In this document: positions 6,316-57,400 of the stretch, piece by piece
Layout of the letters: each line of letters begins with the position of its first letter
How positions within the stretch are numbered: position 1 is the stretch's first letter
DNA from: a virus
Length of the DNA stretch: 64,000 nt
Virus record (IMG/VR): IMGVR_UViG_3300030333_002570
Coordinates: 32,001 to 96,000 of that record
Strand: one strand, 5' to 3'
Notes under the pieces: model-generated
Databases searched by the model: none
What the model was told of the DNA's origin: nothing
Seen by the model: only the letters and a program-made list of their open reading frames with translations
Program-made: the position numbers and the translations under genes

Positions 6316-6882
6316 ATGGCACATTTTGCAAAAATCGAAAAAAGAACAGGCACAGTCGTAGATGTTGTTGCTGTTGCCGATAGTGACACACAAACTGCTG
6401 CAGGTGTAGAGAAGGAATACATTGGTATTGATTTCCTTAAGAAAGTATTTCCTGATACTGCTGCATTATATGATTGGAGACAAACATCATACAATGCTTA
6501 TAAAGGTAGGCATAGAAAAGAAGTTGATGGATCCCTTGTGTGGGATCAGAAACCATGTCTAAGAAAGAATTATGCTGCTATTGGTGGAAAATATGATTAT
6601 ATGAGAGATGCTTTTATTGCACCACCTAATAATCCTAACAATCAAGTCCTAAATGAGGATACTTGTCATTGGGATACCATAACACAAGCAAATCAAACTA
6701 CAACAAATGAGGGTGGACCTCTTGACTATACGGACACTTCCGACTATAGTGATAACTCTAAGATGACTCCTGCCACGTGGGAGTGGACTAATGAGACAAG
6801 AACTTATGTCTCTAAAACTGCTCAAGTTGTAAAACCAGCAGTATATCAGTACAATTCCTCTACTAATACTTGGGAAGCATGA
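6316..6882 (+). CDS. Hypothetical protein commonly adjacent to Gly-rich fibres (possible assembly chaperone)
   Basis: MAHFAKI...WRQTSYN...LRKNYAAIGGKYDYMRDAFIAP motif. Confidence 0.55.
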   Translation: MAHFAKIEKRTGTVVDVVAVADSDTQTAAGVEKEYIGIDFLKKVFPDTAALYDWRQTSYNAYKGRHRKEVDGSLVWDQKPCLRKNYAAIGGKYDYMRDAFIAPPNNPNNQVLNEDTCHWDTITQANQTTTNEGGPLDYTDTSDYSDNSKMTPATWEWTNETRTYVSKTAQVVKPAVYQYNSSTNTWEA

Positions 6883-29913: not shown

Positions 29914-30119
29914 TTCATTTTGCATCTGCTTCACTAAATCTTAACGAGGCATGGAACTTGTCTTGGTCAGAAGGCATCCAATTCATACTAGTACTTGCTT
30001 TTGTCTATTGGTTGAAGGTAAAAATTGATACACGAGCTGGTTTAGGTAAGAAAAAACTAAGACAGTTGAAGGGTGTTATAGTAGAGGCAATTAAAGAAGC
30101 CAACAATGAGGGCAAATAA
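29910..30119 (+). CDS. Small membrane protein
   Basis: Hydrophobic GIQFILVLAFVYWLKV segment. Confidence 0.6.
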   Translation: MIHFASASLNLNEAWNLSWSEGIQFILVLAFVYWLKVKIDTRAGLGKKKLRQLKGVIVEAIKEANNEGK

Positions 30120-30732
30120 AACTGATTTTAACCTGTTTCCTACTCCAGTAACCCACTGGAGAGGATTATTGAAGACTATAGAGGTTCAACCTATAGTCGA
30201 TTTTTGTAAGAACTATAAATCAGGTCAACATAATATGTTAGAAGGGGACGCAGTATGCTCTAGTGGCAGTACTCGTCCTCTTTCTCATACAGACAGTATT
30301 TTAAGAGAGATAGATAAAACCCTTGGTTTAGACCTTTCTGAGGCGTTAGAGGACGTTTTAAACAGGTATGCGAAGCAATATGGCATACAACCAGTAACTT
30401 TGACTAATAGTTGGTTTAACCTCCAATCTGAAGGGAGTGTCTTGAGACAACATAATCACCCCTTTAGTGTAATATCTGCTGCATTATTTGTTAATGCACC
30501 TAAGAATTGTAGTAAATTATATTTTGAAAATCCAAATCCTCATATAGAGTTTAATTATAGGTTGGATGAAAAAGGAAGAAATGAGAGTTTATATGAATAT
30601 TGGCATTTTGAACCAGAATCAGGAGATTTAGTGATATTTCCATCATGGTTAAAGCATGGATCGATGTATGAAAAGAATAATAGTACTGATAGACTAGTCA
30701 TAAGCGTAAATGCAGTTAGGAAAACCGACTAA
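30106..30732 (+). CDS. Putative 2OG-Fe(II) oxygenase (TIGR02466-like)
   Basis: SWFN...VLRQHNHPFSVISAALFV...GDLVIFPSWLKHG...RLVISVN. Confidence 0.85.
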   Translation: MRANKTDFNLFPTPVTHWRGLLKTIEVQPIVDFCKNYKSGQHNMLEGDAVCSSGSTRPLSHTDSILREIDKTLGLDLSEALEDVLNRYAKQYGIQPVTLTNSWFNLQSEGSVLRQHNHPFSVISAALFVNAPKNCSKLYFENPNPHIEFNYRLDEKGRNESLYEYWHFEPESGDLVIFPSWLKHGSMYEKNNSTDRLVISVNAVRKTD

Positions 30733-36400: not shown

Positions 36401-39400
36401 GTAGGAGATCAGGTAACCATTTATGGTGCTAACCCAATTCTTTATAATGGAACATTCCTTGTAACATCTAGAGATAGTGATACTGTTTTCCAATATGCAC
36501 TACCTCAACCTGCAACAGTTATCCCACAGGGTAATATTCTTGTATCTATTGACCTTAATAAGGGTAAATCTACTAGTACTGCAATAAGCAATGCTATTAG
36601 TCCTTATACAACTAACGTTCAAAACTCATTCTTTAATGATAATTACGTTTATGTTGCTTCTACTGGTATTCCAAACTATAATATTGGTCCTTTCCCAGGA
36701 TCTGCTCTTCTTCCTGGTAACCAAAGAAAATTAACAAGATTCCCTAAAGTTCCGACTACTATATCAACTAAAGACCTTATTAGTTCTGGTCCTATTGGTA
36801 CATGGGTAAATGGTGTTTCTGTATGGTCATATAAGTCAAATTTAACTAAGACATTCGGTGCTGTAACAAGTATTGGTATTACAAATGCTGGTTCTGGATA
36901 TGATGCTGCATCTCCTCCTGCTATTACAATTGCTGGTGGAGGAGGTAGTGGTGCTACTGCTTCTGTAGTTGTTGATGGTTCTATTAGTGAAGTTACTGTA
37001 ACTGACGGTGGATCTGAATATACATCCTCACCATTGGTCTCTATAGTCGGTGGAGGAGGGTCTGGTGCTGCTGCAACCGCTATTATCACTAAAGGTGTTG
37101 TTTCACGTATTCTAATTAATTCTGGAGGATCTGGATACACCTCACAACCTCAAATTACTATTGTAGGTGGAGGTGGTTCTGGTGCTTCTGCTACTGCATC
37201 TGTTAGAGGTCCAATTAAGACTATTAATGTTACTTCTGGTGGTTCATCATATACATCTAATCCTACTGTTACTTTAAGTTCTGGTTCTGGTGCTGTTGCT
37301 CAAGCAATTGTACAGAATGGTCGTATTATATCGATTGCTATTATTTCAGCTGGATCTGGATATACTACTGCTCCTGAAATTACTATTCAAGGTGATGGTT
37401 TTGGTGCTGTTGCTAGAGCAACTATTGATGTTGATGGAGAAAATGCAGGTAGGGTTACTAATATTGAAATTATTAATAGAGGTATTGGATATCTTCAAGG
37501 AACCACTATTATTAATTTAAATTCAGTTGGATCTAGTGCATTATTCACTCCAAATGTATTTAAGTGGACTTATAACTTACAATCAACTGCAACTTTAGAT
37601 AGTGCAAAAGGTGGAGTATTTGAAGGATATAATAACCAGTATGGTGGTGAATATGCTCACCTTTCAAACCCACAAACATTAAGATATATTTTAGGTGACA
37701 ACCTTTTTGAATCAACTGGTGGTACAATATTAGAGAAAGAAGATTCTATTGTACACTCACCTATTATTGGTTGGGCGTTTGATGGTAACCCAATCTATGG
37801 TCCTTATGGATACTCTGATCCAACCGATCAAGGTTCTGTAATTACTAGATTGAGCACTTCATATAGAGTTAAAACTGCCCTTGTTTATGACGCTGCTACT
37901 AACCCATACCCAGTTAGGGCTGATGGTCCTTTACTCACAGATACGGATACTAATGGTACTCTATTATATCCAGCTGGTGCTTTCGTTGAAGATTATGAAT
38001 ATGTCTTTGGTTTAGGTGCATTAGATCAATATAATGGTCGTTTCTGTAAAACACCTGATTATCCAACTGGTAGATATTGCTATTTTGTCACTATTGACAA
38101 TACTACTGCTGGTAATCCTGAATTCCCTTATGTTTTAGGACCAAGTTTCAACTCTGTTGTAGATAAGTGGAATTTGAGTACATCTGCTGTTCAACAGAAT
38201 ATTCCTACTGGTGTTGTTCGTTATAGAGACCCATATGAAAATGTTGATATTGATGTAGATAGAGCACCTAACGTTTCTACTAATGCTTTAACAACTGAAG
38301 ATGGTGAAATACTATTATTTGAAGTAGAAGATGAAGATAGAAGTGGTGTTATAGATCAGGTAGAAATAGATGATCCAGATCAAATCTTTGAAGAATCACC
38401 TTTACAGTTATTTGATTACTTCCCTAAAGTAACATTTGATTCTAAAGTTGATATTGAAGTTGAAACTATTACTAAATTTGAAGATGCTTCTGTAACTGGA
38501 TTTACTATTGAAAACCCAGGTATTAACTATCAGGTTAATGACCGTTTAAACTTTGATAATGAAGGAACTGACGGTACTGGTGTTTCTGCTCGTGTTTCTA
38601 GAATTAAGGGTGAAGCAGTCGAAAGTTATACTTTTGAAAACATTAGTGGACAAAATTTCGGTGTTTTAAAGACTACAGAACCACATAATTTAGTAGTTGG
38701 AGATAGTGTTTTTGTAACTTATAATCCAATAATGAACAACACAAATAAAACTTTTGTTGTTCGTCAATTTAAAGGTATTGAAGAAATTGTTGTTAATCAA
38801 ACTGGTTCTGGTTATAATTCTGATATTCCTCCAACAATTACTATTGATAGTGCTACTGGAAGTGGTGGGGAATTACAAGCAGTTGTAACTTCTGTTGGAT
38901 CTATTGAAAATGTTAATATCTTAAATTCTGGTTCTGGATATACAACAAACCCTCGTGTTATACTTTCACATCCACAGGTCTTTAAGAAAGCAGATTACTA
39001 TGTTTCTAAGATTGATAATAATAATTACGTTAAAGTAAATGATGTTGTTGTTAATACAAACAAAGAAGTCTTTATTTGTGGTAAAACAAAAGATGCAAAT
39101 GGTAATAATGTTGGATTTGTTTCTAAATTATCTGCAACTGGTGTTAAAGAGTGGGAGAAAACTCTAGAACTTACTAGTGGACAACAGTACTGTGAATTTG
39201 AAAAACTTTATGTTGATGGAAATGATGTTTGGGTTGTTGGTAATAATAGACCAGAAAGCAATCTTTTAGATGCATATAACCCAGATGTTATTCTGGCAAA
39301 GTATACTCAAGCAGCAAATGGTCTTGCTGCTACATTGGCATTCCAGAAAGGATATGCTGGTATTTCAGGTTCTACTCGTGCTGATTCTGTAACTGCTATT

Positions 39401-42400
39401 ACTAAACTTTCTGATACCAGATTTGTTATTGGTGGTTATACAAATACAAACTCAACTGCTCCTTTTGATGGATATATTGCTCTAATTGATACAACTGGTA
39501 ACTTTGCAATTAAGAGAAAGGTTGCAGGTTCTAATACTTCAGAAAAAGTTACTGGTTTAGCAATTAATGCTGGTAATATTTACTTCTCATTAGAAAGTGC
39601 TGCAAGTCCTAATGCTACTGCTATTGATATTGGATTAGGTAAAGCAACAGTTGGTACTAGTACAATTACTATTGATTATGTTAAAACATATTCAAATACA
39701 GCATATTCATTCTTAGATTCTAGTCTTTGTATTGATGAATTTAATGAAGTTTATTTAACTGCAACTTGTAGACTTAAGGCAAATAATACAACTAAGAATA
39801 GTTTCTGGGTCGGTAAGACAGATATTTCTGGTAATTTAATTTGGAATTATCGTTATCAAATACCTAATGAAAGTGGAACTGAATATGATGTTCAAACAGT
39901 AAACAAAACTGTAATTGATGTTTTTGGTGATCTTAATGTTGGTGTTACCTTAACAAGTGGAATTAATAGTCTGAAGAGTGCAAGATCCTTTAAGATTGGT
40001 TATAGTGGTAATTTAAAAGAACATTCAGCAAATGTCTTTAATATTAATAATATTGAAGGTCTTACTATTCATTCATTAGATGCTGATAATTCTGGTGATG
40101 TCCATTTATTCGGTCAATCTGCTTGGAATAGAAATGAATTTATATTACCATTTACAGGTGGAGCAACAACAGATACAACTGGTCACTATACTCCAACTAT
40201 AGTAACTACAGGAGGTTCATTAAGTTATGAAAATACTGTCCAAGATGGATATGCCAAAATACTCGGATCTCAAACTGCAAGTCCAACTGTCTGGGAAAAC
40301 GCTTACATTAAGTTCGCAGCTGCGGACCTTGGGACTAAACTTGCTGAAGATTGGACTATAGAATTCTTTCTCTATAGAGATAGCACAAATACTAACGTAT
40401 TCAGTCAGAATGAAGAGACTTTATTCTCTATTGGTGATGCAACAGTTACTACTGGTGGTCTTTGGTGTTATATTAATCAAAGTGATGGAAAATTAGGATT
40501 TAGAGCAACTAATAGTACTACTGCATTAAATGCAGGATCTGCTTCATTATCTACACAATCTTCTTTATTCCCACTTAATACTTGGATAACAGTTGGTGTT
40601 AAGAAAGAAGGGGATGTCTTTAGCACATATGTTAATGGTATTGCTACAGGTAGCTGGACTATTGCTAGTACTTCATTAGGAAATAAGGATTTAATTATTG
40701 GTAATATCTCTGGTAGAAACGGAACTCTTAATAACTGGCGTTCAAATGAACAGGGACAATATCATATTGATAATTTACGTTTAAGAAATAGAGCAGTTAC
40801 ACCATCTGTTCCTTCTGATATTACTGTTGTTCCTGCTACTGGTCAATTCCCAATTGGATATAATTGGCAAGATGATGCTTGGTTTACTACTAACCTAAAC
40901 AAATTTGATTATATTGATTACACTGGTATTGGTATTAAAGTTGACAAAAATGCTGATGCATCAAGAATTGGCACTTATACAGAAAGAACTAACACTAAAT
41001 TAGGATTTGTTAGAACAGATGTAATAGGAACTACTATTACTCCTACTACAATGACTGTTGTAACAACAGGATTTGCATTAGCAGATGCTGGATTCCAAGG
41101 TTTAGACTTTGACGATGCTACTACAACAATGTCTCAAGATACTGAGACTATGACTTATACTCAGGATGTATGGAGTTCTAGAACTGCTACTGTTCCATCT
41201 CCAGGTTCTCAGAAATTATCTGTATCTGCTGTAGTTAAAGACAAGTATTACTTTAAAGTAACGAATACTGTTAAGATTGATAATGTTCAAGAACTTACTT
41301 TAAATCAGGCATTTAATTTTACCACAGGAACAAAATTAGTACTTAATAATGATGCAGGTACTTTTGTTAACAGTGGATATATTATTAGACAGGATGTTCC
41401 TAATAAGAAAATATATCTTGCTATTAATAATAATGCTTGGTCAAATGATTTAAATACAGGTAATTTAATTACAGAACAATTCAGTGAGCAGAGCACTTTT
41501 GGAATTGTCGGACCTATTCCTGCTGATATTAATGAAATATCAGGATATACGTTTGCTCAGGTTAATAATACAACTCCTGGTACATTTGATATTGACCTAG
41601 ACGACTATAACCTAGATGGCACTTATAATGCTGGTGGTAGTCAAGACCTCGATAGTTATGCTAAATTTAAACCTTATTCTGATGATGATTATTCAATAAG
41701 AATTGATGAAGTTACTACTGGATCACCATATATTGTTGGATCTGTTATTAATATCAATAGTGGTAATATTTCATATAATGCTGCTTATTCTACTGCTCAA
41801 ATAACTGGATTAACTGCTGTTACAAAGATAACTTTAATTGCTAATCTAACTAAGATTATGCAAGTTAGTGCAGTGTCTAATAGTGACGAAGTTTATGTAA
41901 TTACTGGAACAAGTCATTACCTAGATGCAGGTGATATGATCTATGTTGATGGTAACCCAACGGAAAATAGTCTTGATGAATATGATGGTGCATTTGCTGT
42001 TAATAGTGTTGTAAGTCCATTAGAATTTACATATAAACTAAAACAGGTTGCTACAACTTCTCCTGCTACAACTGCAGGTAATGTAAGTATATTTGTTAAA
42101 TCTCCTGTATTGAAGATGTATTATGGTCACCAGTACATCTTTGACATGAGTCATAGTTCATTACTTGGTGGAAACTTATCATTCTCTAAAGATAACTTAT
42201 TTAAACTAGAGTATTCATTTAACTCAATTGAAAGGACTGGAACTCCTGGTGTTAGTGGAGAAGGTGTTCCTACACCTATAGTTAAGTTAAAAGTTGATGA
42301 AAATATTTTAACTAATATATCATACTACTTTGATCCTTCAAGAATTGGAGATGATTCTCCAATTGATCCTAGCAGTTACTTAGATGTTACTGATTCTCCA

Positions 42401-45400
42401 TATAAAGGTACTTTCTCTATTAGTTCTGTTGCTGGTGCAACAATTACTCGTGGTGCTGATGTATTTAAATTCCCTCTATTAAATGAACCAGAGGGTAATG
42501 CTGAAGTATCTCAAACAACTTATAGCACAAGTTCTGTTAAAGCAGTTGGATCTATTTCTGATGTTCGTATTGTTAACTCTGGTGGATTCTATACTAGACT
42601 ACCAATTGTAAGCAGTATTACTTCAACAAGACAAATTGAAAGAGTTGCTATTGAGGATCCAGGAACTGAATATGCTGTAGGTGTGTATACTGGTGTTCCT
42701 ATTGCTGGAAATGGTGAAGGTGGATTTGTAGAAATTACTGTTGCTGATGGATTAGATAGTGAAGGTGTAACTATTCCTGGTCAAATTAACTCTGTTGTAG
42801 TTACATCACCTGGTAAAAATTATACTACAGCAACTATTGATATTGAATCAATACCTGGTATTCTCGGTGCAGGATTAACTGGATCTGGTGCTATATTAAA
42901 TGTTGTTATTCCTAATGCAGGTACTCAAGCATCTATATTTACCAAAGCAGATAAAGTTGGTAAGATTAAGAAACTTAAGAATAATAACTTTGGTTATGAT
43001 TATCCTCATGACTATACTTTACGTCCTGAGATTTCATTCCCAATTAACGCACAGTTAACATCTACAAGTATACTTTCTAGTATTACCGTTACTAATCCAG
43101 GTTCAGGATATTCACAAGCACCTGCTGTTGTAATTACAGGTGGTGGTGGATCTGGAGCAACTGCTGAAGCAACAATTAAGAATGGTAGATTAGATCAAAT
43201 TATAGTTAAGGATCCAGGTGCTGGTTATTCATCAACACCAACTGTTTCACTTAAATCTTCATTTAACTATGTTGTTAACCTTGACTTAGGTCTACTACAA
43301 TTTGCTTTCCCACACGGTATTACAAATGGTGCTGCTATAACTTTAAATGTAGTTGATACTGGAGATGGTGCTGATTTCCCACTTGCTGCTGGTGCTGTTG
43401 GTCGTTTAAATGGATCTACAACTTATTATGCTATTTCTGGTGCAGCAAATTCATTAGAAAATGATCAATTAAAAATTGCACTTACTGCTGCTAACGCTGA
43501 ATTGGGTGATGCTCTTTCCTTTGTTAACGCTGGTGAAGGTCGTCAACAGGTATTAACTGAATCATTTGGTGGTAGTGCTACTGCTAATGTTATTACTTCT
43601 ACCTTCTTAGAAGGAGAACTTGTTTATCAAGGTGAATCATTAGATACTGCAACTGCTACTGGATATGTTTCTACTAACCAAGGTTGGCAGATCGGACCTA
43701 GAATTCTTAAGATTGTTGATTATACGGGAACATTCTCAGAGACCCAAAAAGTTACGGGTGTAATTTCTAAGTCTTCAGGTACTATTAGTGATTTGAATAT
43801 TGCTCGTGGTGTTCTTGAGATTGGTTCTATTACCAAAACTACTGGTCAGTTTATCGATGATGTTGGTAAACCATCCGAAATTATTCAGAAGATTCAAGAC
43901 TCTTACTATTATCAAGACTTCTCCTATGCTATTAAGTCTGCTGTTTCTATTAGTGAGTGGAAGGAAATTCTTATTAAGAACGTTCATCCTGCATCATTTA
44001 AGGTATTTGGTGAGTTAAATCTATCTGATTATGGATTTATTCCAAATAAAGAGACTGATTTCCAACTTACTAAGTCTGTTGAACTTGCAAGAGAAGCAAT
44101 AGTTCCAAATATTCAAAGTTTTGCTCTTGTAGAACCAATTTATTCAGAATTTAATAACACTGAAGTTCTATTCCGTCAAAAGAGATTAACTTCTTCTGAG
44201 AACATTCTAACTTCTGTTGTACAAAGAATTGATGATATTTCTGATCAATTTGATGGTGAAAAGATTGCATTCCCTCTAACAGTTGATGGTAACACTGTTG
44301 TTGCTAACGCTAATCAGTTAATGATTGTTTTGAATGGTATTGTTCAGAACCCTGGAACTGCATTTGAGATTCAAGGTGATTCTATCGTCTTTAGTGAACC
44401 ACCACAACCACCTGCAAGTGTTAAGTATGTTAATATTGAAATATCACAAATTTCAATTGTAAGTAATACATTTACTAACCAAAGTGGTATTTTCCCAAAT
44501 CCAGGTAATATTTTAACTGGAACAAACTCTGGTGCTAAATTAACTGTTACTTCTGTTGTTGGTGATACTATATTTGGTTTTATTACAGAAGGAACATTTA
44601 TTGCTGCAGAAAACGTAACTGTTAGTGCAACTGGATTTAGTGCTAACCTTGATGTTCAAAGTAGTGTAAGTAATATTGGATTATTCCAGTACGGTGAACA
44701 AGTTAAGAACTTAACTAATGATACTGCTAAGGTTGAGCAAATCAACCTTCAGAGAGGTTTGGAGAATGCATTAGCAAAATTACGTTATACAGTTGGTCCT
44801 TCTACTCTTCAAATAGAAGTAGTTCCTCCAAATAGCACTACAGACGGTCCTGTTGCTACTGATACATTTACGGTTGATCAAAATTATCAACTTGGATCTG
44901 AAGTTGTTAAAGTTACTAATATTGTTGACGGTAATGATTCTACAACATTAACAGTTTCCAGAGCACAAAATGGAACTATTGCATCACAACATCAAGAAGA
45001 TTTCCCAATTTACGGAACTCTATTAACGGTGACAACTTCTCTTACTTTAAGTAAGACAGCTGGAACTTATAAGTCTACTCCTGGTCTATTTGATATTCAG
45101 TTAAATGATATCATTATTGGTGCTAAGTCTGGTGTTGTTGCTCGTGTTACACAAACAAGTGCATATCAAGATCCTACAACTCAAGAGTTTATAAGTCAGG
45201 TTAATATTTCTGAAGGTTCTTCCTTCTTTGGATTGTTGATGAACAGAATTACTTCTCAGACATATCCAAACGTTGTTCTTGATGATATTTCTAAATCTCA
45301 AGTTAGTGTTGTTCAGTACACTGATAATTCTACTGCTTTCAACTCACAGTTCCCTGCTAATGAACAGATTAATAACATCGTAGTTCCTTACGATAATCTA

Positions 45401-48400
45401 GTTGGTGGTCCTATTCAAGAGAATGAAACTATCAGAAATTACAAACTTAAGTATGGTGGAAATACTGGTGAATTTATTGCTGGAGAAAGTGCTAGAGCAA
45501 GAAAACTTTCTTATGTTAATCCTAAAGGTGATGGATTCTTTGCTACTGGTCAGGTAATTAGAACTCAAGATACAAAAGCAGAAGTTCTTGGATTTAATCA
45601 GGCAGATCAAGTGATTTACCTTGGTAAAGTTGGTAGAACTAAAGCGAATGGTCAAGATTATCATATCCCATCATTCTCTAATAGTGCTCAACTCGATACT
45701 ACAGTTAAGTACTATGGAACTGCTTCACTACAATTAGTAGCAGCAACTAATGATTATGTTACTATTCCTTCTTCAAGTGAATTTGCTTTTGGAACAGGTG
45801 CATTTACTATAGATCTAATGTTACGTCCTGCAGCAAGTTCTTTAAGTGGAACTGCTACTATACTTGACATGAGAGCATCTGCTGCAAATGAAGTTGCTGG
45901 TAGACTTTACTTAGAAGCTGGTCAAGTTCGTTGGAATGTTAGTAATGCTGATGTAGTTACTTCTGGTGCAACAACTCTTAGTGCAGATACTTGGGTTTTA
46001 ATATCCATTATGAAGTCTTCTACTACAACTAAGATTTTATTAAATGGAGTTGAAGCAGGTACTGCAACAGATAATACAACTTATATTGCAAAACCAATTA
46101 GATTAGGTTCTGATTATGCTGGTACTAATAGTTTTACTGGATTCATTGATGAGTTAAGAGTATCTAATACTAACCGTCATCAAACAATTCCATTTACTCC
46201 TCAGAATGGTATTTGGCAAGGTGATGCTCAAGCTAAGTTATTATTACACTTTGATGGTGCTGATGCTCAAACATGGGTTGATGATTGGTCTGGTGCAGAA
46301 GGATTTACTGCTGGTGAAGACTTTAATAATGATGCTATAATATCTTCAACTCGTTCTTCTAATGCTACTCCTGGTGGATTTACTGGTAACACACAAAGAT
46401 ATTATGATGCTGCTGATTTAATTCTTCTTAATAAGGAATTCCTTGCTCAAGAAGTTGTTTATATTCTAAAAGAAAGACATCCTCATCATACTGTTAAGGG
46501 TAGTGAAGTTGATTGTGAAGATGATGTTCGTGATGTATTAGATGCTGTTATTGATGACCTTCGTAATGGAACAAATAATAAGATTTGGGATGCATCTTCT
46601 TACTATGTTGATAGAACATCATCACCTATTGTATTGAAGTTTGTTTCTAATGAAGTTGATGAAGTAGTTTACACTTATGATAAACTTGAGGAAATGCTCA
46701 AGTATATTGTTAATAATACTCTTTGGGATGTTCAAGGTGATCATGGATTAGTACAAAAGACAGATTCTACTATTACAGAATCTAGTGGATTAACTACACA
46801 AACTTTCCAACCTACTGGAGCATCATATGATGCAGCAAGTGGTTATATGGTTTTAACTGCTTCTGGACACGGTATGAGATCAGAGAGAGCAATTACTGCA
46901 ACAGATGCTGCTTATACTGCAACAACAGGTATTTTACAATTAACAGTTGCTACCTCTACATTTAGTGTTTCTACTGCAACTTATGACCATACAACTGGTG
47001 TTATGGTAATAACAATTGGTTCTCATAGTTTGACAACCAATGATAATATTAGAATTGCTACTGGTGGAATCACATTTAGTTGTGACAATGGTGGAGTTAG
47101 TACTGGTGCATATCCTCGTTCATCTGGTGCTAATACAGAAAGTGGTGCTGACTATGCATACGATAGATGGCTTCCAATTCTTGCTGTAGGTGCAACAACT
47201 ATTACTGTTAATGTTAACGGTGGTAAGGGTGCTATTAGTCATGCCTTTGCACACACATATTCAACTTCTTCTGCAGGATGTATTACTGCTGGTCATGGTC
47301 TTAATGATGGAGATAGAATCAAGTTTGATCCTAATTCTCTTGTAATGAATTGCACCTCTGATGGTAATACAGTTAATCAGAGTTATCCAAGACCTGATGA
47401 TCCTGCTGCTCAAGGTTGGTTAGAAGTTACAGCAAATACTGGTACTACATTTGATGTAAATGTTGGTAAATCACCTACTGTGAATTATACAGCAACTGCT
47501 GGAACTTATAATGCTGATACTGGTTTCTTAACCATGAATATTGGTCAACATAATCTAAGAACTGGTAGAAAATATACTGCAACTAATGCTGAATATACTG
47601 CAGCTTCAGGTGTAATGAAGATTACTATTGGTGATAGTATTGATGTTTATGATGCAAGTTATACTGCTAAAAATGGTCTATTAAAATTAAATATTGGTCA
47701 TCATAACTTTAAAAAAGGTAGTTTAGTTAAGATTGCTCCTAACTCACTATTCTTTACTTGTAGTATGGATGATTATCAGTCAGTTCATGCATATCCAAGA
47801 TCAAGTGATCCTGTTTATAATGATGATATTGAAATTATTGATATAACTGATGAAACTATTACTGTTGATGTAGGAACTTCTCCAGAAGTTTCATATACAC
47901 CTACTGGTGCAACTTATGACATCAATACAGGTGATATGGTACTTACTATTGGTTCTCATAGTTTAGCAGTTGGAACTAGCATAAGACTTTTAGATGAATC
48001 TATATCATTTAGTTGTAGTTTTGGTAGTGGTGGTACTAGTGCATATCCTCGTCCTTTAGTTGATACTGCAAATATAAGCACAGCATCTTACAATCCTCAG
48101 ACTGGAATCTTCTCAGTAACAACTACTGCTGCACATAACTTAACTGGTCCTACTGCTAAAAATGTTACTGATGCTACTTACAATCCATCTACAGGTATTT
48201 TACAGTTAGAATCTGGAGGTCATAACTTTGCTGTTGGTGATAAGATAAGAATTAAGGATGATTCTTTAGTATTTACTTGCACTAAAGATGGAAATGCAAC
48301 AAACCATACATATCCAAGATCAACTGATCCTGTAAGTGGACAATGGTTAACTATTGTTGCTAGAGCAACTAATACTTTTGATGTTCAGGTTGGTGCTTCT

Positions 48401-51400
48401 AAGATTGGTTTAAATGAATTTGCTCATACATGGGCTGGTGGTACTGCAACTAATGCAGTTGAGAAAGCAAATGATGTAATTAAATTTGCTGATAATTCAA
48501 TGACATTTACTTGTGCATTGGATGGTGGTGCAACACAACATCAATATCCAAGGACAACTGATCCTGTAAGTGATAAGTGGTTGATTGTTGAAAATGTTGG
48601 ATCAACTACTTTTGATGTTCAAGTTTTAGATAACGCTCCTTCTACTAATACATCTGCACATACATTTGTTAGTGCAACAACTGGTGCTGTTAAGATTAAG
48701 AGAGATCCTGCTCAAGGAACTGCTCTTCCAATCACTGCTGTAGGTGCTACAACTATTACGGTTAATGTTACACCTATTACTTCTTATAGTTCATCATCTC
48801 ATACATTCCAATCTGCATCTCAAGGTGCTGTTAAGGTTGGTGGTGATTACACTCATAAATTTGTAGATGCTGCTTCTGGTGCTGTTATTCCTCATCACGG
48901 ATTCTATATTGGTGATAGAATAATGTTTGAGGAAGGATCATTAGTCTTTACTTGTGGTATGGATAGTGATGCTACTAGACATGCATATCCAAGAGAAAGT
49001 GATCCATTCTACAATAAATGGTTACCAATTAGTAGTGTAACTACAAATACCTTTAATGTTGATGTTGGATCAACTACTAATACAACATTTACTCCAACTG
49101 GAGGATCCTACGATGGAACCACAGGTAAGTTAAGTATTACTATTGGTGCTAATACACTTGAAGTTGGTCAGCATGTTAAGATTGCTCCTAACGGAATTTC
49201 ATTCACATGTGCAATGGATGGTGGTCAATCTGTTAAGTCCTATCCAAGAACAACTGACCCAACATATAATCAAACTCTTCCAATTCTTGAAAGAAGTGAT
49301 ACTGCTATTACTGTTGATGTTGGTAAATCACCTTATGTTTACTTTGATGTTTCTGCTGCTACCTACAACCCAACATCGGGTGTCATGGTACTTACAATCG
49401 GAGATCATGGATTAGCTGCTAATACAAGTATCAGACTTAAAGATAATTCATTAACCTTTAGTTGTGATCAAGGTGGAACTGTTGGAACTGGAACTTATCC
49501 TAGATCTGGTGGTGCAGACTACGTTTATCAGAAAGCAATTAATATTGATTCTGTAACTGATACTACAATCACAATTAATGTTAACGGTGGTCAAGGTGCT
49601 ATTACTAATACCAATGCTCATACATTCGTAAGTGCTATACCTGGTGCAGTTATTGCTGGTGGTGCTTGGGCTCATACTTATTCTACTGCTGCAGCAAATG
49701 CAGTTTCAGTTGGTGGTAACTATACTCATACGTTTAAGTCTGCTTCTCCTAATGGTATAACAAGAGCTGGTGAAACACTTAGAATTATTAAAGATGGTAT
49801 ATCATTTAAGTGTTCACAAGATGGATATCAAACAATTCATTCATATCCTAGAACAGATGATCCTGGATATAATACTTCTCTACCAATCTATAATGATGGT
49901 ACTGCTTATACTGCATCTAATGCAGCATATAATGCATCAACTGGAGAAATGGTCATTACTATTAATGGACATGGATTTACAACCAGTGATCAAATTAGAA
50001 TTGAAAATAATTCATTAACATTCACTTGTGTTAAAGATAGTAATACATCTACCCATAGTTATCCTAGAGATAATGATCCATTCGTTCGTAGATGGTTAAG
50101 AATTACTGCTGTTACTGAAAATACATTTACTGTAAATGTAGGTAAAGCATCTTCCTCAACTCAACAGTTCTCACATACATTTGCTTCTGCTACTAAAAAT
50201 GGTATTGTTAAACGTGATAATACTGTTACTGTTAACGTTGGTGCTATTCCAACTAAGAGTTTCACACCGACTGCATCAACATATAATCCTTCAACTGGTG
50301 CTTTAGCATTAACTATTGGATCACATAGTCTACCAGCTCCAACCACACATACACCAACTGATGTTGCGTACAATCCAACAACAGGTATTATGACTTTGAC
50401 TATTAATGGTCATAACTTCTCTAATGGTGAAAAGATCAAGATTGCTGATGGTGGATTGAAGTTAAGTTGTGCATTTGGTGGTGCTTCTGGTGCTGCTGCA
50501 CAGAAAGATTATCCACGTTCAACTGACCCAATTAGCGGTAAGTGGATTCCTATTAAGAATGTAACTACAAATACTTTTGATGTCCAAGTTCTAGATGTAA
50601 TACCTTCTACAAACACTGATGCTCATTCATTTGTATCTGCTGTTACTGGATGTATTAGTAAAGCAAATGCAACAGTTAAAATTGCTGAAAATTCATTAGT
50701 TTATAAGTGTGCTGAAGATAGTAATGCTACAGAACATGCTTATCCAAGAAGCAATGTTGCTACTCATACAGCTGGACCAGGGACAACTTATAATCCTGTT
50801 ACAGGTGTTCTGAAGCTTAGTGTTCCTACAGAAAGTCATACACCTTCTACAGCAACATATAATCCTTCAACGGGTGAGATGGTTCTAACTCTTGATTCAA
50901 CTTCTGGAGCATTTAACGTTTCTAATGCAACTTATAACACCTCTACAGGTGATATGGTACTTACCATTGGATCTCATAGTTTAACTACAGCAAATAGAAT
51001 TAAAATTAAAGAAGGATCTTTGAAGTTTGCATGTAACTTTGGTAATGATAATTATCAAACTCCAAAAGCATATCCAAGAGCTTCAGGTGCTAATACTACT
51101 AATGGTGCTGACTATGCATTTAATACATTCCTACCAATTACCGCAGCTGATGCTACAACTATTACTGTCAATGTTAATGGTGGTCAAGGTTCTATCAGTA
51201 ACAATAATCAGCATAATTTCTTAAGTGCTGATGCTGGTGCAGTTATTGTTGGTCATGGATTATCTGTTGGTGATAGAATTAAGATTGCTGATGAATCATT
51301 AACCTTCAGTTGTGATCAAGGTGGAACTGTTGGAAATGGTTCATATCCTAGATCATCTAATGACTATGTTTATCGTAAGTGGATTAGAATTAGAGCAGTA

Positions 51401-54400
51401 ACTGGAAATACTATTACTGTTAATGTTAACGGTGGACAAGGTGCTATTACTAATACCAATGCTCATACATTCGTAAGTGCTACTGCTAATTGTATAACCT
51501 CTGGTCATGGAATGACTAATGGTACTCCAATTAAGATAACTGATAGTTCACTATCATTCAGTTGTACTGAAGGTGAAGGTGGTACATATGCATATCCAAG
51601 AGCAACTGACCCAGTTTCTAAGAGATGGTTATTCATCAATAATGTAACTGATTCTTCATTCGATGTTCAAGTTTTAGATACAATTCCTTCAACTAATGTA
51701 ACTTCACATACATGGATTAGTGCTGTTGCTGATGGTATTGTTGAAGGTGATCCTATTGTTGGACAAGCAGTTCCTGTTGAATCTGTAACTTCTACATCTA
51801 TTACAATTAATCCTCTTGATGGTGATGTTCCAACTAACACATCTGCACATACATTTGAGAAGTTAAACACATATCAATTCCAACCATCTGCTATTACCTA
51901 CACTCCAACAACAGGTGTAATGTCAATAACATCTACATCTCATAAGATTGAAGAAGGTGATAAGATATTCATTAAAGATAATTCATTATCATTTAAGTGT
52001 AATATGGGTGATGATGCTGGTCTTCATACTTATCCTCGTGAGACAGATCCAGTATCTAATAAGTGGATTACTGCTACTAACGTAACAGCTAATACATTTG
52101 ATGTTAATGTTGGTTCAACACCTAATGTCTTCTATACTCCTTCGGATGCAACATATAATCCAACTACGGGTATAATGAGACTTACTATTGGTAACCATGA
52201 TCTTAGACCTGGTACTAGTGTTAAGTTAGGACAAGAATCATTAACATTTAAGTGTGCTCACGATTCTTATGCAACTAATCATTCATATCCAAGAAATACA
52301 ATATTAAGTCATACTCCAACTGATGCTGATTATCATCCTGATACAGGTATCATGACATTGACTGTCAATAATCATAAGATGGGTGATGGTGATTGGGTTA
52401 AGATTGCTGATGGTGCTGTAACATTTAAATGCACATATGGTGCTGGTATTCATACTTGGACTGGTGGAACTGCAACTGGTGCTGTTCAAGTTCAAGAAGC
52501 AGGTTTAGGAAACTTTGATGTTACTGCTGCTGACTATAATCCATTGACAGGTGATATGGAATTAACAGTCGGATCTCATTCTATTACAACTGGTAATACC
52601 GTTAAAATTGTTGCTAACTCATTAACCTTCAGTTGTGATCTTGATAATAATGCAACGAACCACACTTATCCTCGTGCAACTGACCCTGCATATGATACTG
52701 CTCTTGCAATATCTGCTGTAACTGGTACAACTATAACAGTTAATGTTGGTGTAAGTTCACCTGGAACTGCATATCCTCGTGCTTCTGATCCAGTTAGCGG
52801 TAAGTGGATTAAGGTCTTTAACGTAACTACAAATACATTTGACGTTCAACTTTTAGATATTGTTCCATCAACTAATACAAGTATTCATACATTTGTTTCT
52901 GCTGTTACTAATGGAATTAGTCAGAAGAAAGATAGTGCTTATGATTCTCCAGTTGAAATTGTTGATACTACTGCTACAACTATAGATCTTAAAGTTGTTA
53001 GAAAATTACCTTCTACAAATACAACAAATCACATCTTTGTGTCTGCTGCATCTAACGCAGTTATCTCAGGTGGTGCATATACACATACCTTTGTTACAGC
53101 AGACGCAGATGCTATTACTAGATCTATAGTACAAACTGGTGGTAATTATAATCATGTATTTGCATCAGCATTAACAGATGGTGTAGTTACTGGTGGTAAC
53201 TATGTTCATACTTTTGTATCTGCTGCAACTAATGGTATTAAGTGTGCTGGTGATGCAGTTTATCTTGCTCCTGGATCTCTTACATTTACATGTTCACAGG
53301 ATGGAAATGATAGACCTACTGCATATCCTAGAACTACAGATCCTTCTTATAATCAATTATTAGAGATTAAAGATGTAACTTCTGATACATTTACTATTGA
53401 TGTAGGTGCAGCTGCAGAGAAAGATCAATATACTCATTCATGGGTAAGTTCTTCTCAAGGAGCTGTTAAGAAATCTGATTACAATCTCAAAGATTGTACT
53501 GATGTTCATACTACAGTCGGTAACTTAATTGATATACTTACAGATACATTAACAAATGCTAATGTATCACCTACACCTGTTGATCATTTAGCAAGTGTTA
53601 CTAAGGTTCTACCACCATATAAGTTCTACGGTGCAACCGTTGACGCATATAATGATACTCCATTCCCTGTATCATATCATAGTGCTGCCAATGATCTTAT
53701 AGTTACTAATCAAATTGATGAAGATACTCAGTATAGATTCCGTGATGCTGCATACTTAATTCGTGCAAATAGTGGTGTTATCGTTGATAAAGCAGCATAT
53801 GACATGCTACAACGTTATCCAGATCTTGCTATTAGTATGCCAAGAAATGCTAATGGAACATCTACAGATGGTACTGTTCGTTGTAAGCAAGATTTACTTG
53901 AGTTTGTTAGTGCAATTGCTACTGACCTTGAAAATGGTGGTAATTTAAATACCATGAAAGCTGCTAAGTTCTATATTAGTCTTTCTGGTGGATTACAACA
54001 TATTCGTTTACAGGTATTCCAATCTGTTTATGCACATGATCGTTTAGGTGTATATCTTAAGCAAGCAGTTACTGGTGATTTAACATATGATAATACCGAT
54101 AATATCGTTGTTCGTGACTGGGGTATTACTGATAATAGTTCTAGTGGTAATTGTGCTAATGTTCAAACTGCTATTGACACATTAATTACATCAATTAATG
54201 ATTTGATCGCACCTACAGATAGTGACCATGCACTTGCTGCAGATAGATTATACTTCAATAAAGATTTCCTTGCTGAAGAAATTACTGGTCTTACAACTGC
54301 ATATTTCACTTATACATTAAACGGTGTTAATTACTCAGCACTTACATATCCTGGATCTACTGGAGAGGCTACATGTCAGAGAGATATTAAGTTAATTTTA

Positions 54401-57400
54401 GATGGTATTATTTCTGATCTACAAACTGGTGGTAATGAAAGTACTGTTATTGCAATGGAGAAATATCTAAGTGCTACACTTCAGATTGAACAAGTGGATG
54501 ATGAATTAGCAGCAACTATCTACGCTATTGATAGACTTAGACATCTTGGTCAATTTGGTATTAAGGATAAATTATTCTCACAAAATGAAGGATCAGGTGC
54601 TGCTGATGAATATGAAGCAGTTCATACTAATAGAGCAGAGTATAGAGATGGTTTAAGTGATGCTGGTGGTATGAATGCGGTTGTATATCGTTATCGTGAT
54701 CTATGTGATATTGCAATTAATATACTTGCTCCTGGTGGTAAGGCAGCAAGAAGTGCTGTTAAGCAACTTAAGTACAACCAAAATTACTATAAGGAAGAGA
54801 TAACCACACTTGTTAATACACAATTTGGAACTGGAACTTGGACTTATAATACATTCATTGATGAAATGGTTGGTAATACTGTTCATGATATTCTTACAAC
54901 TGACTTTAATAAAACAAGGACTGCTTATACAATAGAATTAACTAGTACATTCAATGATTATGTTGTTGGTGAAACTGTTGTTTCTAGTAATGGTGGTAAA
55001 GCAACTGTATTAGAATGGGATGATGATGAAGAAATTTTATATACTTCATCATGGACTGGTAATAAGTTTGAACCAACTCAAACATTAGTTGGTGGAAGTT
55101 CTGGTGCATATGGAACTATTGCTGCTAATGGTGTTAGTGCTCCTTATACTTGGTATACAGAACCTGCTAATATTAAATCACTTAACACTGCCAGATTAAT
55201 TACTTCTAATATTTCTGGTCAAGTTGCTGGAACTAATATAGCATCTAATCCAGAAAACTTTACAACTGGTTGGACAAACACTGGTATAACTACATCTGCA
55301 GATCAACTTGAATCACCAGATAGTACAACAACTTCAGATAAGTTAATTGCTGCTGCTGTTGCTGGTGAACATTATATTTCACAAAACTTTGCTATTAGTG
55401 CTTATGAAACATTTGATAGTGATACAGTTAAGTTTGATAGTGCTACTGAAACATTTGACACTGGTGCTCTTGGAACTCAAACAACTCAGCAATACACATT
55501 CTCAGTATTCTTGAAGAAAGGTGAATTTAATAGAGTTCGTGTTCAAATGGGTCTTGATACTGGAACTGTTGGAGAGCAATTAGCATTCTTCGATCTTAAT
55601 TTGAATGATGGTGTTATTGGTTCTATATTCACTCCTGGTAATGGTATTGTTATTGATGCATATGGTGTTGTTCCTTATGGTAATGGTTGGTATAGAGCAT
55701 ATATTACTGGAACATTCTCCTTCGGATTCTCTCAGATACGTCCAATAATCTTTGTTAGAGATGCTTCTGGTGCATCAACCTATACTGGAGATGCAAGTTC
55801 TGGTATTTACATCTGGGGTATGAAACTCTTTAAGGGTGTTCTCGATCCTTATCAATCTGTTGCTGGTCAAGTATTCTATGCTGATACAGAGTATAACATT
55901 AAGACTTATGCATTAGATCTGTTACAAGATTATATGATTAAGGCACTTACTGGATCTTTAATATCTCCTTCAACTAATGCAGGATTCTATGCATACTATG
56001 ACAATACAATTAATACTGATTATAAGTATCGTTCTATTGAAAGATTAGTAAGATATAATTTAAATATTATCCGTGAGCAATTAGCAGTAGATAGTTACTA
56101 CACTGGTATTATCTCATTAAATGGTGTTTCTGTTCCTACTAAGACTTATGGTACTAGAAGCATTCCTGCAGGTATACAAGGTGGTTTACAAAATTCAATT
56201 TATGTTTATGGTCTTCAAAGTAATGCTAATGCTGAAATTGAAACAATAACTGAAAATTCAGGTAAAGTTGTTCAAGTTTATCAGAGATTTAGAATTGATG
56301 GTGATATAACAGACGGACCATTTACTATGAATGAGACTGTTTCTAAACAGGGTGCTCCTTCTGTTACTGGTGTTGTTTATGGTTACTGGTCTGATGAAAA
56401 CTACAAGTACCTAGATGTTAAGATTACTGCTGGTCCTTGGGCGGTTACAGATACCATTGTTGGTGCTCTAAACTCAACAACTGCTCAAATTAGTTTAATA
56501 GAAGATAGACTTCATATTATTGATGTTAAGGGTGAATTTGAGAATGATATTCCATTTAAGGGATATACAAGTAGTGCTACAGCATCACCTACTGGATATA
56601 TTAAGGCAGAGGCATCTGTTATTGACAATACTGGTGGAACCTTAACAGTTGATACTGAAAGTCTAACAGGATCATTTGAATCAACTGCTGTTGTTTATCC
56701 ATCATCTTCTAGGAAATATATCGATGTTTCTAAGTATGCTGGTCTTGATATTACTGTTGGTGATAGAATTGCTTCTGGTGGATATAAGAGATTTGGTGTT
56801 TCTGTTCTAAGTGGACTTAATCAATTTACTCAAGGTAATAGACTTTATAAGGTTGTCTCTGGTATTCAAGATACTAACACATACGGTATTATCACCGAAG
56901 TTGATATTGATAATGGTTACATATATGTTGCGGAATATCAAGGATCATTTACTCAGGGTGATATTGTAGGTGACTATGGCACAAATGCTTCCTTCCCAGT
57001 TGGTTACGCATCAATTTTAACGATTGTTACTACTCAGGGTGCTGCAGCTGCATTAGTACAAGATGTTCGTGATATCGCATTGAATAAGAGATTATATCTA
57101 ACAGATATTGCAGGAACATTTGATGATAAAGATTATATCATCGGTCCTGATAATTATAGATCTGTAGTTGTTGGTATTACTGATCTTAAGGCACGTGTTA
57201 AACGTTCCTTCAAGGGATTTGATGGAACAACAACTACGTTCCCATTAACAATTAATAACGGAACCACATACTTACCTGACTCTGCAGGTCATATGTTAAT
57301 ATTCCTTAATGGTATATTACAACCTCCAGGTGCAACTAACGCATATACAGCGTTCTCTAACCAGATTCAGTTTACTGAAGCACCAGATTTAGGTGCATCC

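What the first reader, a model, noticed from the sequence alone, without database searches (positions are those of the whole stretch)
46800..53470. Recursive 'Matryoshka' domain insertion: about 21 copies of one domain nested inside each other in the giant structural protein
Seen in sequence: the repeat has the ordered parts A (ATYNPxTG.M.LT), H.L..G, B (IKI..SLTF.C..YPR), DP..WL.I..TFDV.V and C (HTFVSA..AV), but they are not tandem. Copies open, are interrupted by whole copies, and resume later like brackets. Three-level example: a copy stops at YPR (about 48052); a second opens (48060) and stops after AHNLTG (48148); a third runs complete (48149-48472); the second resumes DVIKF...GAVKIK (48473-48700); the first resumes RDPAQG...GAVKV (48701-48837); stacked closers and a resumed PHHGFYIGDRI follow. 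Near 53020-53250 four C segments are stacked. The final DAVYLAPGSLTF..YPR..DP (53252-53470) appears to complete the copy opened at 46801, so one domain would wrap about 6.4 kb. Inference: insertion into surface loops would give a branched, tree-like virion appendage rather than a linear fibre.
Basis: partly seen in the sequence, partly recalled or inferred. Interest (0 to 1): 0.82.

Follow-up and report, generated by a model that had tools for sequence, protein, structure and literature searches.

The report
Domain nested inside itself 21 times
A giant baseplate protein of a T4-like cyanobacterial virus holds 21 copies of one small beta-barrel domain inserted into each other's loops up to eight levels deep, deeper than the six-level record named in a 2026 survey of domain insertions.

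Summary
The finding lies in one 8217-aa ORF (window 33473-58126, +), a gp7-like baseplate wedge protein of a T4-like cyanomyophage.

- **The nest.** Residues 4450-6667 hold exactly 21 copies of a ~98-aa domain, cut into 41 pieces. A stack parse on profile coordinates closes every bracket with no errors, at depth 8, if one copy is read as a circular permutant. None of 200,000 shuffles in each of two kinds parsed.
- **The domain.** With a 126-row alignment, AlphaFold2 folds the uninterrupted domain as a small closed beta-barrel (pLDDT 96.6). All six insertion sites fall in its loops.
- **A two-level nest** folds confidently (pLDDT 90.4, pTM 0.81).
- **Intact, not debris.** All 21 spliced copies match the family profile end to end. 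Split copies are under the same purifying selection as whole ones (dN/dS 0.22 and 0.25).
- **The outermost copy.** Its two ends lie 6.3 kb apart. A complex prediction gives only weak support that they bind (0.38, best control 0.01).
- **Spread.** The architecture is widespread in cyanomyophage virion proteins, and the nesting tree differs between phages.

The principle is known from the Si3 insert of cyanobacterial RNA polymerase (8 domains, 6 levels). This case has a different domain, sits in a virion, and is deeper. A branched shape and a function are still inferred. Other first readers of this scan noted the same stretch of this genome.

The parts
33473..58126 (+). Giant ORF, 8217 aa. It is a gp7-like baseplate wedge protein and carries the nest.
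   Evidence: Pfam PF23786 Baseplate_wedge (39.5 bits, cut-off 27) and PF14240 YHYH in the N-terminal half. PHROG 701, 2885 and 708 hits. Gene order is gp25-like, gp6-like, this ORF, then a wedge/fibre connector.
46397..53731 (+). Alpha-helical repeat unit that hosts the whole nest in one loop. Flanks: 46397-46801 and 53474-53731.
   Evidence: With the nest removed, the flanks align across the junction with the next helical unit. Score 155, Z 21.8 against shuffles.
46820..53473 (+). Copy a, the root. Pieces: A 46820-46885; B-D-C 53246-53473. Its guest b sits at the A/B loop.
   Evidence: spliced 96.6 bits. The pieces are predicted to associate with ipSAE 0.38 against 0.01 for the best control, which is weak support.
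46907..53239 (+). Copy b. Pieces: 46907-46951; 47288-47479; 53192-53239. Guests: c at the A1/A2 loop, d at the D/C loop.
   Evidence: 107.7 bits.
46976..47287 (+). Copy c, uninterrupted.
47501..53185 (+). Copy d, in four pieces: 47501-47566; 49763-49900; 50213-50251; 53135-53185. Guests: e (A/B loop), l (mid-D), m and r (D/C loop).
   Evidence: 79.5 bits, the lowest of the 21.
47588..49759 (+). Copy e. Pieces: 47588-47635; 48887-49084; 49712-49759. Guests: f and j.
   Evidence: A contiguous copy in L020 matches the spliced form at 61% over 94 aa.
47654..48886 (+). Copy f. Pieces: 47654-47881; 48839-48886. Guest g at the D/C loop.
47909..48835 (+). Copy g. Pieces: 47909-48055; 48701-48835. Guest h at the B/D loop.
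48083..48694 (+). Copy h. Pieces: 48083-48148; 48467-48694. Guest i at the A/B loop.
   Evidence: AlphaFold2 model of h(i): pLDDT 90.4, pTM 0.81. A contiguous copy in L048 matches spliced h at 62% over 97 aa.
48173..48463 (+). Copy i, uninterrupted. It is the deepest copy, at level 8.
   Evidence: In the nest model, residues 27-137 match small barrels at Z 7.8-8.0.
49103..49705 (+). Copy j. Pieces: 49103-49330; 49658-49705. Guest k at the D/C loop.
49358..49654 (+). Copy k, uninterrupted. It is 68% identical to split copy p.
49922..50212 (+). Copy l, uninterrupted. It sits inside the D segment of copy d.
50276..51865 (+). Copy m. Pieces: 50276-50338; 50663-50755; 51746-51865. Guests: n (A/B loop), o (B/D loop).
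   Evidence: The same sub-tree is present in L001-L004 at 60-94% identity.
50363..50662 (+). Copy n, uninterrupted. This is the copy that was modelled.
   Evidence: AlphaFold2 pLDDT 96.6, pTM 0.85.
50783..51742 (+). Copy o. Pieces: 50783-50824; 51500-51742. Guest p at the A1/A2 loop.
50852..51499 (+). Copy p. Pieces: 50852-50893; 51245-51499. Guest q at the A1/A2 loop.
50927..51244 (+). Copy q, uninterrupted.
51893..53116 (+). Copy r. Pieces: 51893-52120; 53066-53116. Guest s at the D/C loop.
52148..53062 (+). Copy s. Pieces: 52148-52300; 52925-53062. Guest t at the B/D loop.
52325..52921 (+). Copy t. Pieces: 52325-52444; 52766-52921. Guest u sits inside the B loop.
   Evidence: 118.6 bits spliced.
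52442..52765 (+). Copy u, a circular permutant. Its C piece (52442-52492) comes before its A-B-D piece (52529-52765).
   Evidence: The same C-then-A-B-D order is collinear in L001 (53% over 111 aa) and L005 (63% over 105 aa).

Best explanation
This is a real case of recursive domain insertion of one domain family into itself.

A ~98-residue all-beta barrel domain, specific to cyanomyophage virion proteins, has been copied in frame again and again into surface loops of other copies of itself. Residues 4450-6667 of the gp7-like baseplate protein now encode 21 barrels. Their chain order is a(b(c,d(e(f(g(h(i))),j(k)),l,m(n,o(p(q))),r(s(t(u)))))). The root copy sits in turn in a loop of an alpha-helical repeat.

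Each split copy most likely still folds as a complete barrel from pieces that lie up to 2,100 residues apart. This works because a guest's two ends lie side by side, so the guest can leave and re-enter the host loop. In the model, short strands flank the guest on both sides, as a two-stranded stalk would need.

Only six loops accept guests: A1/A2, A/B, mid-B, B/D, mid-D and D/C.

Inferred, not shown:
- The nest forms a multiply connected, branched or bundled array of barrels projecting from each of the six baseplate wedges.
- That array serves as a robust structural or adhesive extension.
- Its size and shape evolve by adding or losing whole barrels.
For: - **Grammar.** 41 pieces, 21 copies, 0 errors, depth 8; 0 of 200,000 shuffles of either kind are valid.
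- **Fold.** The uninterrupted copy is a closed barrel: pLDDT 96.6, pTM 0.85, strands at 2-4, 9-13, 24-27, 32-35, 47-50, 71-75 and 89-93. Every insertion point (13/14, 21/22, ~40, 52/53, ~66, 76-85) is between strands.
- **Two-level nest h(i).** With 39 natural nests of the same architecture as its alignment, the model reaches pLDDT 90.4 and pTM 0.81. The outer A piece scores 90-95. The outer pieces repeat the unit's strand pattern. The guest, residues 27-137, matches small barrels at Z 7.8-8.0.
- **Root copy.** Its pieces score ipSAE 0.38 against 0.01 for the best of 3 controls. That mark was reached by 58 of 80 solved complexes and 2 of 110 mismatched pairs, but a pass at 0.60 or under is weak. 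The runs share at least 92% of contacts, and the partner's pLDDT is at least 60.
- **Spliced copies.** All 21 align end to end to a profile built from uninterrupted copies in loci fetched from other metagenomes. They score 79.5-131 bits; the six uninterrupted ones score 92-131.
- **Natural whole counterparts.** Contiguous copies in other phages match spliced h, t, e, s and o at 56-62% over their full length.
- **Selection.** dN/dS against the L002 ortholog is 0.22 for split pieces, 0.25 for whole copies and 0.33 for linkers.
- **Spread.** 90 distinct two-level nests occur in 79 viral contigs and use the same six sites. Five other giant homologs parse with no error, for example P0005 with 16 copies, 10 of them split, at depth 8.
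- **Context.** The protein is gp7-like and sits in a T4-type baseplate gene order.
Against: - No coordinates or error maps were available. Contact between an outer A piece and its own B-D-C piece was never seen directly.
- The complex prediction passed only weakly.
- A test of whether short pieces match their bracket-assigned partner better than other pieces was barely above chance: mean rank 8.6 against 11, P 0.04, and none ranked first.
- The parse needs one circular permutant, and its C piece was added by hand.
- My automatic parser built on the broader profile fails on most homologs, including this protein, because weak short pieces are missed. The spread across the family therefore rests on a subset.
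- The function and the shape of the assembly are inferred.
Confidence: 0.85

Rival explanations
1. Linear modular beta structure. The A, B, D and C segments are interchangeable beta modules that pack with their immediate sequence neighbours into a long sheet, solenoid or fibre. The bracket order would then be a by-product of how repeats were shuffled.
For: Stacks of three or four C pieces (GGxYxHxF...) and runs of A pieces look like simple short repeats. Homologous domains occur in proteins annotated as tail fibres. No direct contact map was obtained.
Against: - The order obeys a strict stack grammar at profile-coordinate level; 0 of 200,000 shuffles of either kind do.
- The unit is predicted as a closed barrel at pLDDT 96.6.
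- In the nest model the guest is a complete barrel (Z 7.8-8.0), and the outer pieces are confident and keep the unit's strands.
- The counts of A, B, D and C are equal, 21 each.
Confidence: 0.05
2. Fossil debris. The nest records old insertion events, but the interrupted hosts no longer fold. Only the six uninterrupted copies would be real domains, and the other pieces would act as linkers.
For: Some outer pieces are weak matches: the A pieces of copies a and h score 3-7 bits. Spliced copy d scores lowest. The partner-matching test was weak.
Against: - Split pieces have the same dN/dS as whole copies, 0.22 and 0.25.
- In the aligned rows, Cys36, Tyr-Pro-Arg and His88 stand in all 21 spliced copies. 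His17 is missing only in copy j.
- The outer pieces reach pLDDT 90 or more in the nest model.
- The same six sites recur in 90 nests.
Confidence: 0.05
3. Swapping between chains. The protein forms an oligomer, and open pieces of one chain are completed by pieces of another chain, so the brackets close between chains rather than within one.
For: Many phage fibres are intertwined trimers. The complex prediction shows only that an A piece can dock on a B-D-C piece, not that both come from the same chain.
Against: - From established knowledge of T4, the gp7 wedge protein is present as one copy per wedge. This ORF carries the gp7-type wedge domain in a T4-type gene order.
- A single chain of h(i) folds confidently on its own.
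- Perfect balance within one chain is not needed for swapping.
Confidence: 0.05

Closest known systems
Si3 insertion of cyanobacterial RNA polymerase beta' (RpoC2): nested sandwich-barrel hybrid motifs
   Same: - One small beta domain is inserted recursively into copies of itself, so some copies are built from distant chain segments.
- Si3 has eight SBHMs, four of them discontinuous. This was solved by crystallography and cryo-EM (PMC10895346).
- A 2026 survey describes it as a six-level nest and cites it as its example of complex, multi-level nesting (PMC13114784).
- Like this nest, it sits in a loop of a host element.
   Different: - The domain family differs. No sequence match was found, and no RNA polymerase chain was among the 50 rows shown.
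- Si3 belongs to a cellular enzyme, not a virion.
- Si3 has 8 domains and 6 levels. This nest has 21 domains and 8 levels, or 9 counting the helical host.
- This nest includes a circular permutant, and its tree varies strongly between related phages.
T4 gp7 baseplate wedge protein and its cyanophage homologs (PHROG 701/2885, Pfam PF23786)
   Same: The N-terminal part carries the wedge domain. The gene sits between gp6-like and wedge-connector genes. Database homologs are annotated gp7 baseplate wedge initiator.
   Different: T4 gp7 has about 1000 residues (own knowledge); this protein has 8217. I found no description of the nested region in the papers searched.
Inserted small beta-barrels: endosialidase barrel domain (4hiz, 1v0e) and the UBA1 FCCH domain (4p22, 2v31)
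   Same: These are among the top structural matches: Z 6.3-7.8, rmsd 1.9-2.8 A, 67-83 residues aligned. From my own knowledge, both are themselves guests inserted into a larger host domain, so their chain ends are adjacent. The endosialidase barrel binds sugar.
   Different: Z is below the level at which the tool warns of mere common arrangements. Identity is 12-16%. There is no evidence of shared ancestry or of sugar binding here.

Membership tests
Recursive domain insertion of one family into itself (the kind known from RNA polymerase Si3) | Discontinuous copies whose pieces, once joined, are collinear with a contiguous member of the same family | tested here: met
   All 21 spliced copies align over profile positions 1-2 to 87-95, at 79.5-131 bits. 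Contiguous natural copies match the spliced ones at 56-62% over their full length.
Recursive domain insertion of one family into itself (the kind known from RNA polymerase Si3) | Pieces are properly nested (balanced brackets) over more than one level | tested here: met
   0 errors at depth 8; 0 of 200,000 shuffles of either kind are valid. One circular permutant must be allowed.
Recursive domain insertion of one family into itself (the kind known from RNA polymerase Si3) | Guests enter at loops of the host fold, and the guest's two ends are adjacent | tested here: met
   All six sites lie between strands of the pLDDT 96.6 model. In the nest model, strands flank the guest on both sides at residues 29-39 and 127-133. 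No distance between the chain ends could be measured, because no coordinates were available.
Recursive domain insertion of one family into itself (the kind known from RNA polymerase Si3) | Three-dimensional evidence that distant pieces form one domain | tested here: inconclusive
   High pLDDT and pTM for h(i), and a weak pass for the pieces of copy a (0.38 against 0.01). No contacts or coordinates were seen.
Sandwich-barrel hybrid motif (the Si3 domain family itself) | Sequence or fold match to SBHM | tested here: inconclusive
   A profile search of PDB sequences found only chance-level hits. The fold searches list other small barrels. A family that is not listed is not excluded.
T4 gp7-type baseplate wedge protein | Wedge domain, and a position in the baseplate gene cluster | tested here: met
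   PF23786 at 39.5 bits against a cut-off of 27. PHROG baseplate wedge families, flanked by gp25-like, gp6-like and wedge-connector genes.
Linear phage fibre repeat (beta-helix or solenoid) | Repeat units stack with their sequence neighbours in a continuous structure | tested here: not met
   The unit and the guest in the nest are predicted as closed barrels. The units are not tandem.
Any curated Pfam family for the repeated unit | Match above the gathering score | tested here: not met
   In the half that holds the nest, the only hit is a Fibronectin type I match below cut-off, 19.4 bits against 27.

The most novel reading that the evidence does not exclude
The nest builds a self-similar, dendritic array of 21 rigidly stalked barrels on each baseplate wedge. 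This would be a branched protein architecture that cyanomyophages remodel by copying whole barrels into six permissive loops. Remodelling would tune the reach, stiffness and number of binding surfaces for attachment to picocyanobacteria. The near-invariant Cys and two His would form a metal site that clamps each split barrel shut.
Probability: 0.3. Interest if true: 0.88.

Novelty: new variant of a known kind. Interest (0 to 1): 0.78.

Why it matters
- **It is deeper than the published example.** A 2026 survey of 2.7 million classified domains names a six-level nest in RNA polymerase as its example of complex nesting. This virion protein reaches eight levels with 21 copies of one family. As far as I know, AlphaFold-based surveys leave out viral proteins and very long ones, so they would probably miss it.
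- **It is a natural experiment in folding and design.** It shows which loops of a small barrel tolerate a guest. Circular permutation is tolerated. A domain appears to stay under selection when its halves are 2,100 residues apart.
- **It bears on phage biology.** Part of the huge, unexplained size of cyanomyophage baseplate proteins would be explained. Because the tree changes between related phages, it may be a fast-evolving host-contact structure.

Tried and rejected
1. **Broader-profile parser.** A greedy parser using the profile built from other phages missed weak A and C pieces. It then failed in cascades on most homologs, and on this protein too. Only the parser built on this protein's own copies gave a clean parse.
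2. **Peeling.** I tried excising complete copies and searching again. HMMER merged neighbouring pieces into false full-length hits, and the run stalled after 10 copies.
3. **BLAST rows for a three-level model.** Of 80 collinear BLAST candidates checked, only two (L002, L016) share the piece order of g(h(i)). I therefore modelled the two-level nest, for which 38 true same-architecture rows existed.
4. **Fold search with the nest model.** It returned only alignments to the guest, residues 27-137, so it did not test the discontinuous host.
5. **Partner matching through third-party homologs.** The result was barely above chance: mean rank 8.6 against 11, P 0.04.
6. **Solved structures.** A profile search of PDB sequences found no relative of the unit. 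Foldseek against the PDB gave no match at E 0.001 or better.
7. **Literature.** Four searches found no description of this nest.
8. **Filled against empty sites.** BLAST against L001 and L003 merged everything into one long low-identity alignment, so no strictly orthologous filled and empty site pair was shown.
9. **Assembly artefact.** Rejected, because L002 and P0002 carry the same region independently.


Full report
**Where it is.** The finding lies wholly inside one open reading frame, window 33473-58126 on the + strand, 8217 codons. The N-terminal half matches the Pfam baseplate-wedge domain PF23786 (39.5 bits, cut-off 27) and the YHYH domain. It also matches PHROG families of cyanophage virion and baseplate wedge proteins. 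The genes before it are gp25-like and gp6-like wedge subunits. The gene after it is a wedge/fibre connector. The best matches in phage records are cyanomyophage proteins annotated gp7 baseplate wedge initiator, virion structural protein or tail fibre, in 326 records, all below 60% identity. The protein is therefore the gp7-like wedge protein of a T4-like cyanomyophage.

**Checking the observation.** I aligned six uninterrupted copies of the repeat and built a 98-99 position profile with parts:
- A1, positions 1-13
- A2, positions 14-21
- B, positions 22-51, ending in YPR
- D, positions 52-78
- C, positions about 84-97

Local profile hits over the giant protein are fragments. Their profile coordinates stop and resume in a telling way. 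One example is 2-51, then 2-15, then 2-94, then 21-96, then 51-96. Block profiles find 21 A, 21 B, 21 D and 21 C pieces, all within aa 4451-6667. Only a few sub-zero-bit D hits lie elsewhere in the 8217 residues.

A stack parser opens a copy when a piece starts at profile position 6 or lower. Otherwise it demands that the piece resume where the top of the stack stopped. It gives 21 copies from 41 pieces, with no error, nothing left open and a maximum depth of 8. One condition applies. The C-like piece at aa 6327-6339, which I added by hand, must belong to the A-B-D piece that follows it. That makes copy u a circular permutant. Without this reading, the five errors all cascade from that one copy.

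None of 200,000 shuffles of all pieces gives a valid parse. None of 200,000 shuffles that keep the pattern of opening and resuming pieces does either.

The resulting tree is a(b(c,d(e(f(g(h(i))),j(k)),l,m(n,o(p(q))),r(s(t(u)))))).

**Not an artefact, not debris.**
- An independently assembled viral contig (L002, 85-94% identical) has the same 21-copy order, including the permutant.
- Joined according to the brackets, all 21 copies align end to end to a profile built from uninterrupted copies in loci fetched from other metagenomes. They score 79.5-131 bits, the same range as the six uninterrupted copies at 92-131.
- Cys36, Tyr-Pro-Arg and His88 are present in all 21 aligned rows.
- Contiguous copies in other phages match spliced h, t, e, s and o at 56-62% over their whole length, better than any other copy of the window does.
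- Against L002, dN/dS is 0.22 for pieces of split copies, 0.25 for whole copies and 0.33 for linkers.

**Structure.** I gave AlphaFold2 copy n with a 126-row alignment of uninterrupted copies. The model is very confident: pLDDT 96.6, pTM 0.85. It is all-beta, with strands at 2-4, 9-13, 24-27, 32-35, 47-50, 71-75 and 89-93. All six places where copies are interrupted fall between strands: 13/14, 21/22, about 40, 52/53, about 66 and 76-85.

Fold searches give only modest matches to small closed barrels. These include the inserted barrel of phage endosialidases, the FCCH domain of UBA1, and FAD-binding and EF-Tu-domain-2-like barrels. Z is 6.3 for the unit alone and 7.8-8.0 when the linker strands are included. 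No solved relative exists by sequence. Predicted viral structures hold the same domain in many cyanophage tail, fibre and wedge proteins, with TM 0.83-0.90.

For a nest I could not use BLAST-collinear rows. Piece labelling showed that nearly all of them were out of register. Instead I collected natural two-level nests with the same architecture. Among 79 viral contigs there are 90 distinct simple nests, and they use the same six sites:

| Site | Nests |
|---|---|
| A/B | 38 |
| D/C | 24 |
| B/D | 12 |
| A1/A2 | 10 |
| mid-B | 4 |
| mid-D | 2 |

With the 38 A/B-type nests as alignment, copy h with its guest i (window 48068-48700) is predicted at pLDDT 90.4 and pTM 0.81. The outer A piece scores 90-95. 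The outer pieces repeat the strand pattern of the unit. Strands also flank the guest at residues 29-39 and 127-133, as a two-stranded stalk would need. The tools returned no coordinates, so I did not see the contact between an outer A piece and its own B-D-C piece.

As a substitute I asked whether the two pieces of the root copy bind as separate chains. These are aa 4444-4478 and 6590-6668, 6.3 kb apart in the gene.
- The score was 0.38, against 0.01 for the best of three controls.
- The mark was reached by 58 of 80 solved complexes and 2 of 110 mismatched pairs.
- The tool rates a pass at 0.60 or under as weak.
- The runs share at least 92% of contacts, and the partner's pLDDT is at least 60.

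A test of whether short pieces match their assigned partners specifically, through bridging homologs, was barely above chance.

**Surroundings.** With the nest cut out, the flanking sequence (aa 4309-4443 plus 6668-6753) aligns across the junction with the next alpha-helical repeat unit, at Z 21.8. The whole nest therefore sits in a loop of a helical module, which adds one more level.

**Evolution.**
- The copies are old: 35-68% identical to each other, with k and p the closest pair at 68%.
- The trees differ between phages. L001-L004 share the m sub-tree but differ before and after it.
- With the strict parser, five other giant homologs parse without error, with 10-16 copies and depths 3-8. 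Many show further permutants.
- The permuted C-then-A-B-D unit recurs collinearly in L001 and L005.
- Hosts split at one site resemble each other. For example, in all six D/C hosts the C piece is preceded by Gly-Gly and reads GGxYxHxF or close to it. Part of the nest may therefore have grown by duplicating sub-trees that were already nested, not only by fresh insertions. This is my reading of the alignment and is not tested.

**What is known.** Recursive insertion of a domain into itself is established for the Si3 insert of cyanobacterial RNA polymerase. Si3 has eight sandwich-barrel hybrid motifs, four of them discontinuous, forming one elongated body (PMC10895346). A 2026 survey of 2.7 million domains names that six-level nest as its example of complex nesting (PMC13114784). 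I found no paper describing the phage nest. The present case is a new variant of that kind. It has another domain family, sits in a virion protein, has 21 copies and 8 levels, includes a circular permutant, and has a fast-changing tree.

**Verdict.**
- The nested-insertion reading is well supported at sequence level. At structure level it is supported by predictions that lack direct contact evidence.
- The branched shape of the appendage and any role in adhesion remain inferences.
- Other first readers of this scan noted the same stretch of this genome. Their points on the permutant and the helical host held up here.

Noticed in passing
window 46397-46801 and 53474-53731: The whole nest sits in a loop of an alpha-helical repeat unit. 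Three or four such units follow one another at aa 4309-7100. Spliced flanks align across the junction with the next unit at Z 21.8.
   Followed up: yes
all 21 copies; for example copy n, window 50363-50662: Cys36 and Pro51 are invariant across 126 uninterrupted copies from many phages. Tyr3, Gly8, His17, Tyr50, Arg52, Asp55 and His88 are at least 90% conserved. One Cys plus two His from three different segments could form a metal site that clamps the barrel. Their closeness in space was not tested.
   Followed up: partly
window 52442-52765; L001 aa 2193-2302; L005 aa 815-917: The circularly permuted order, C then A-B-D, is not a one-off. It is collinear at 53-63% identity in other phages. The strict parser flags 1-4 such copies in many homologs.
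   Followed up: partly
copies k (49358-49654) and p (50852-50893 plus 51245-51499): This is the closest pair in the nest, at 68% identity, and they share a run reading NVNGGQGAITNTNAHTFVSA. One is an uninterrupted guest and the other is a split host. A copy of the same subfamily can therefore play either role.
   Followed up: no
window 33473-46000 (aa 1-4176 of the giant ORF): The N-terminal half has many short repeats around GSGY or GxGY, a YHYH domain at aa 1365-1544, and the wedge domain near aa 685-729. Homologs also carry LamG-type domains. These were not analysed.
   Followed up: no
window 59383-63999: The next large ORF (more than 1539 aa, running off the window) is another baseplate wedge subunit (PHROG 708). 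It shares domains with the giant ORF.
   Followed up: no
window 30106-30732: A 2OG-Fe(II) oxygenase gene (PHROG 81, E 1.5e-32) lies just upstream of the baseplate wedge genes.
   Followed up: no
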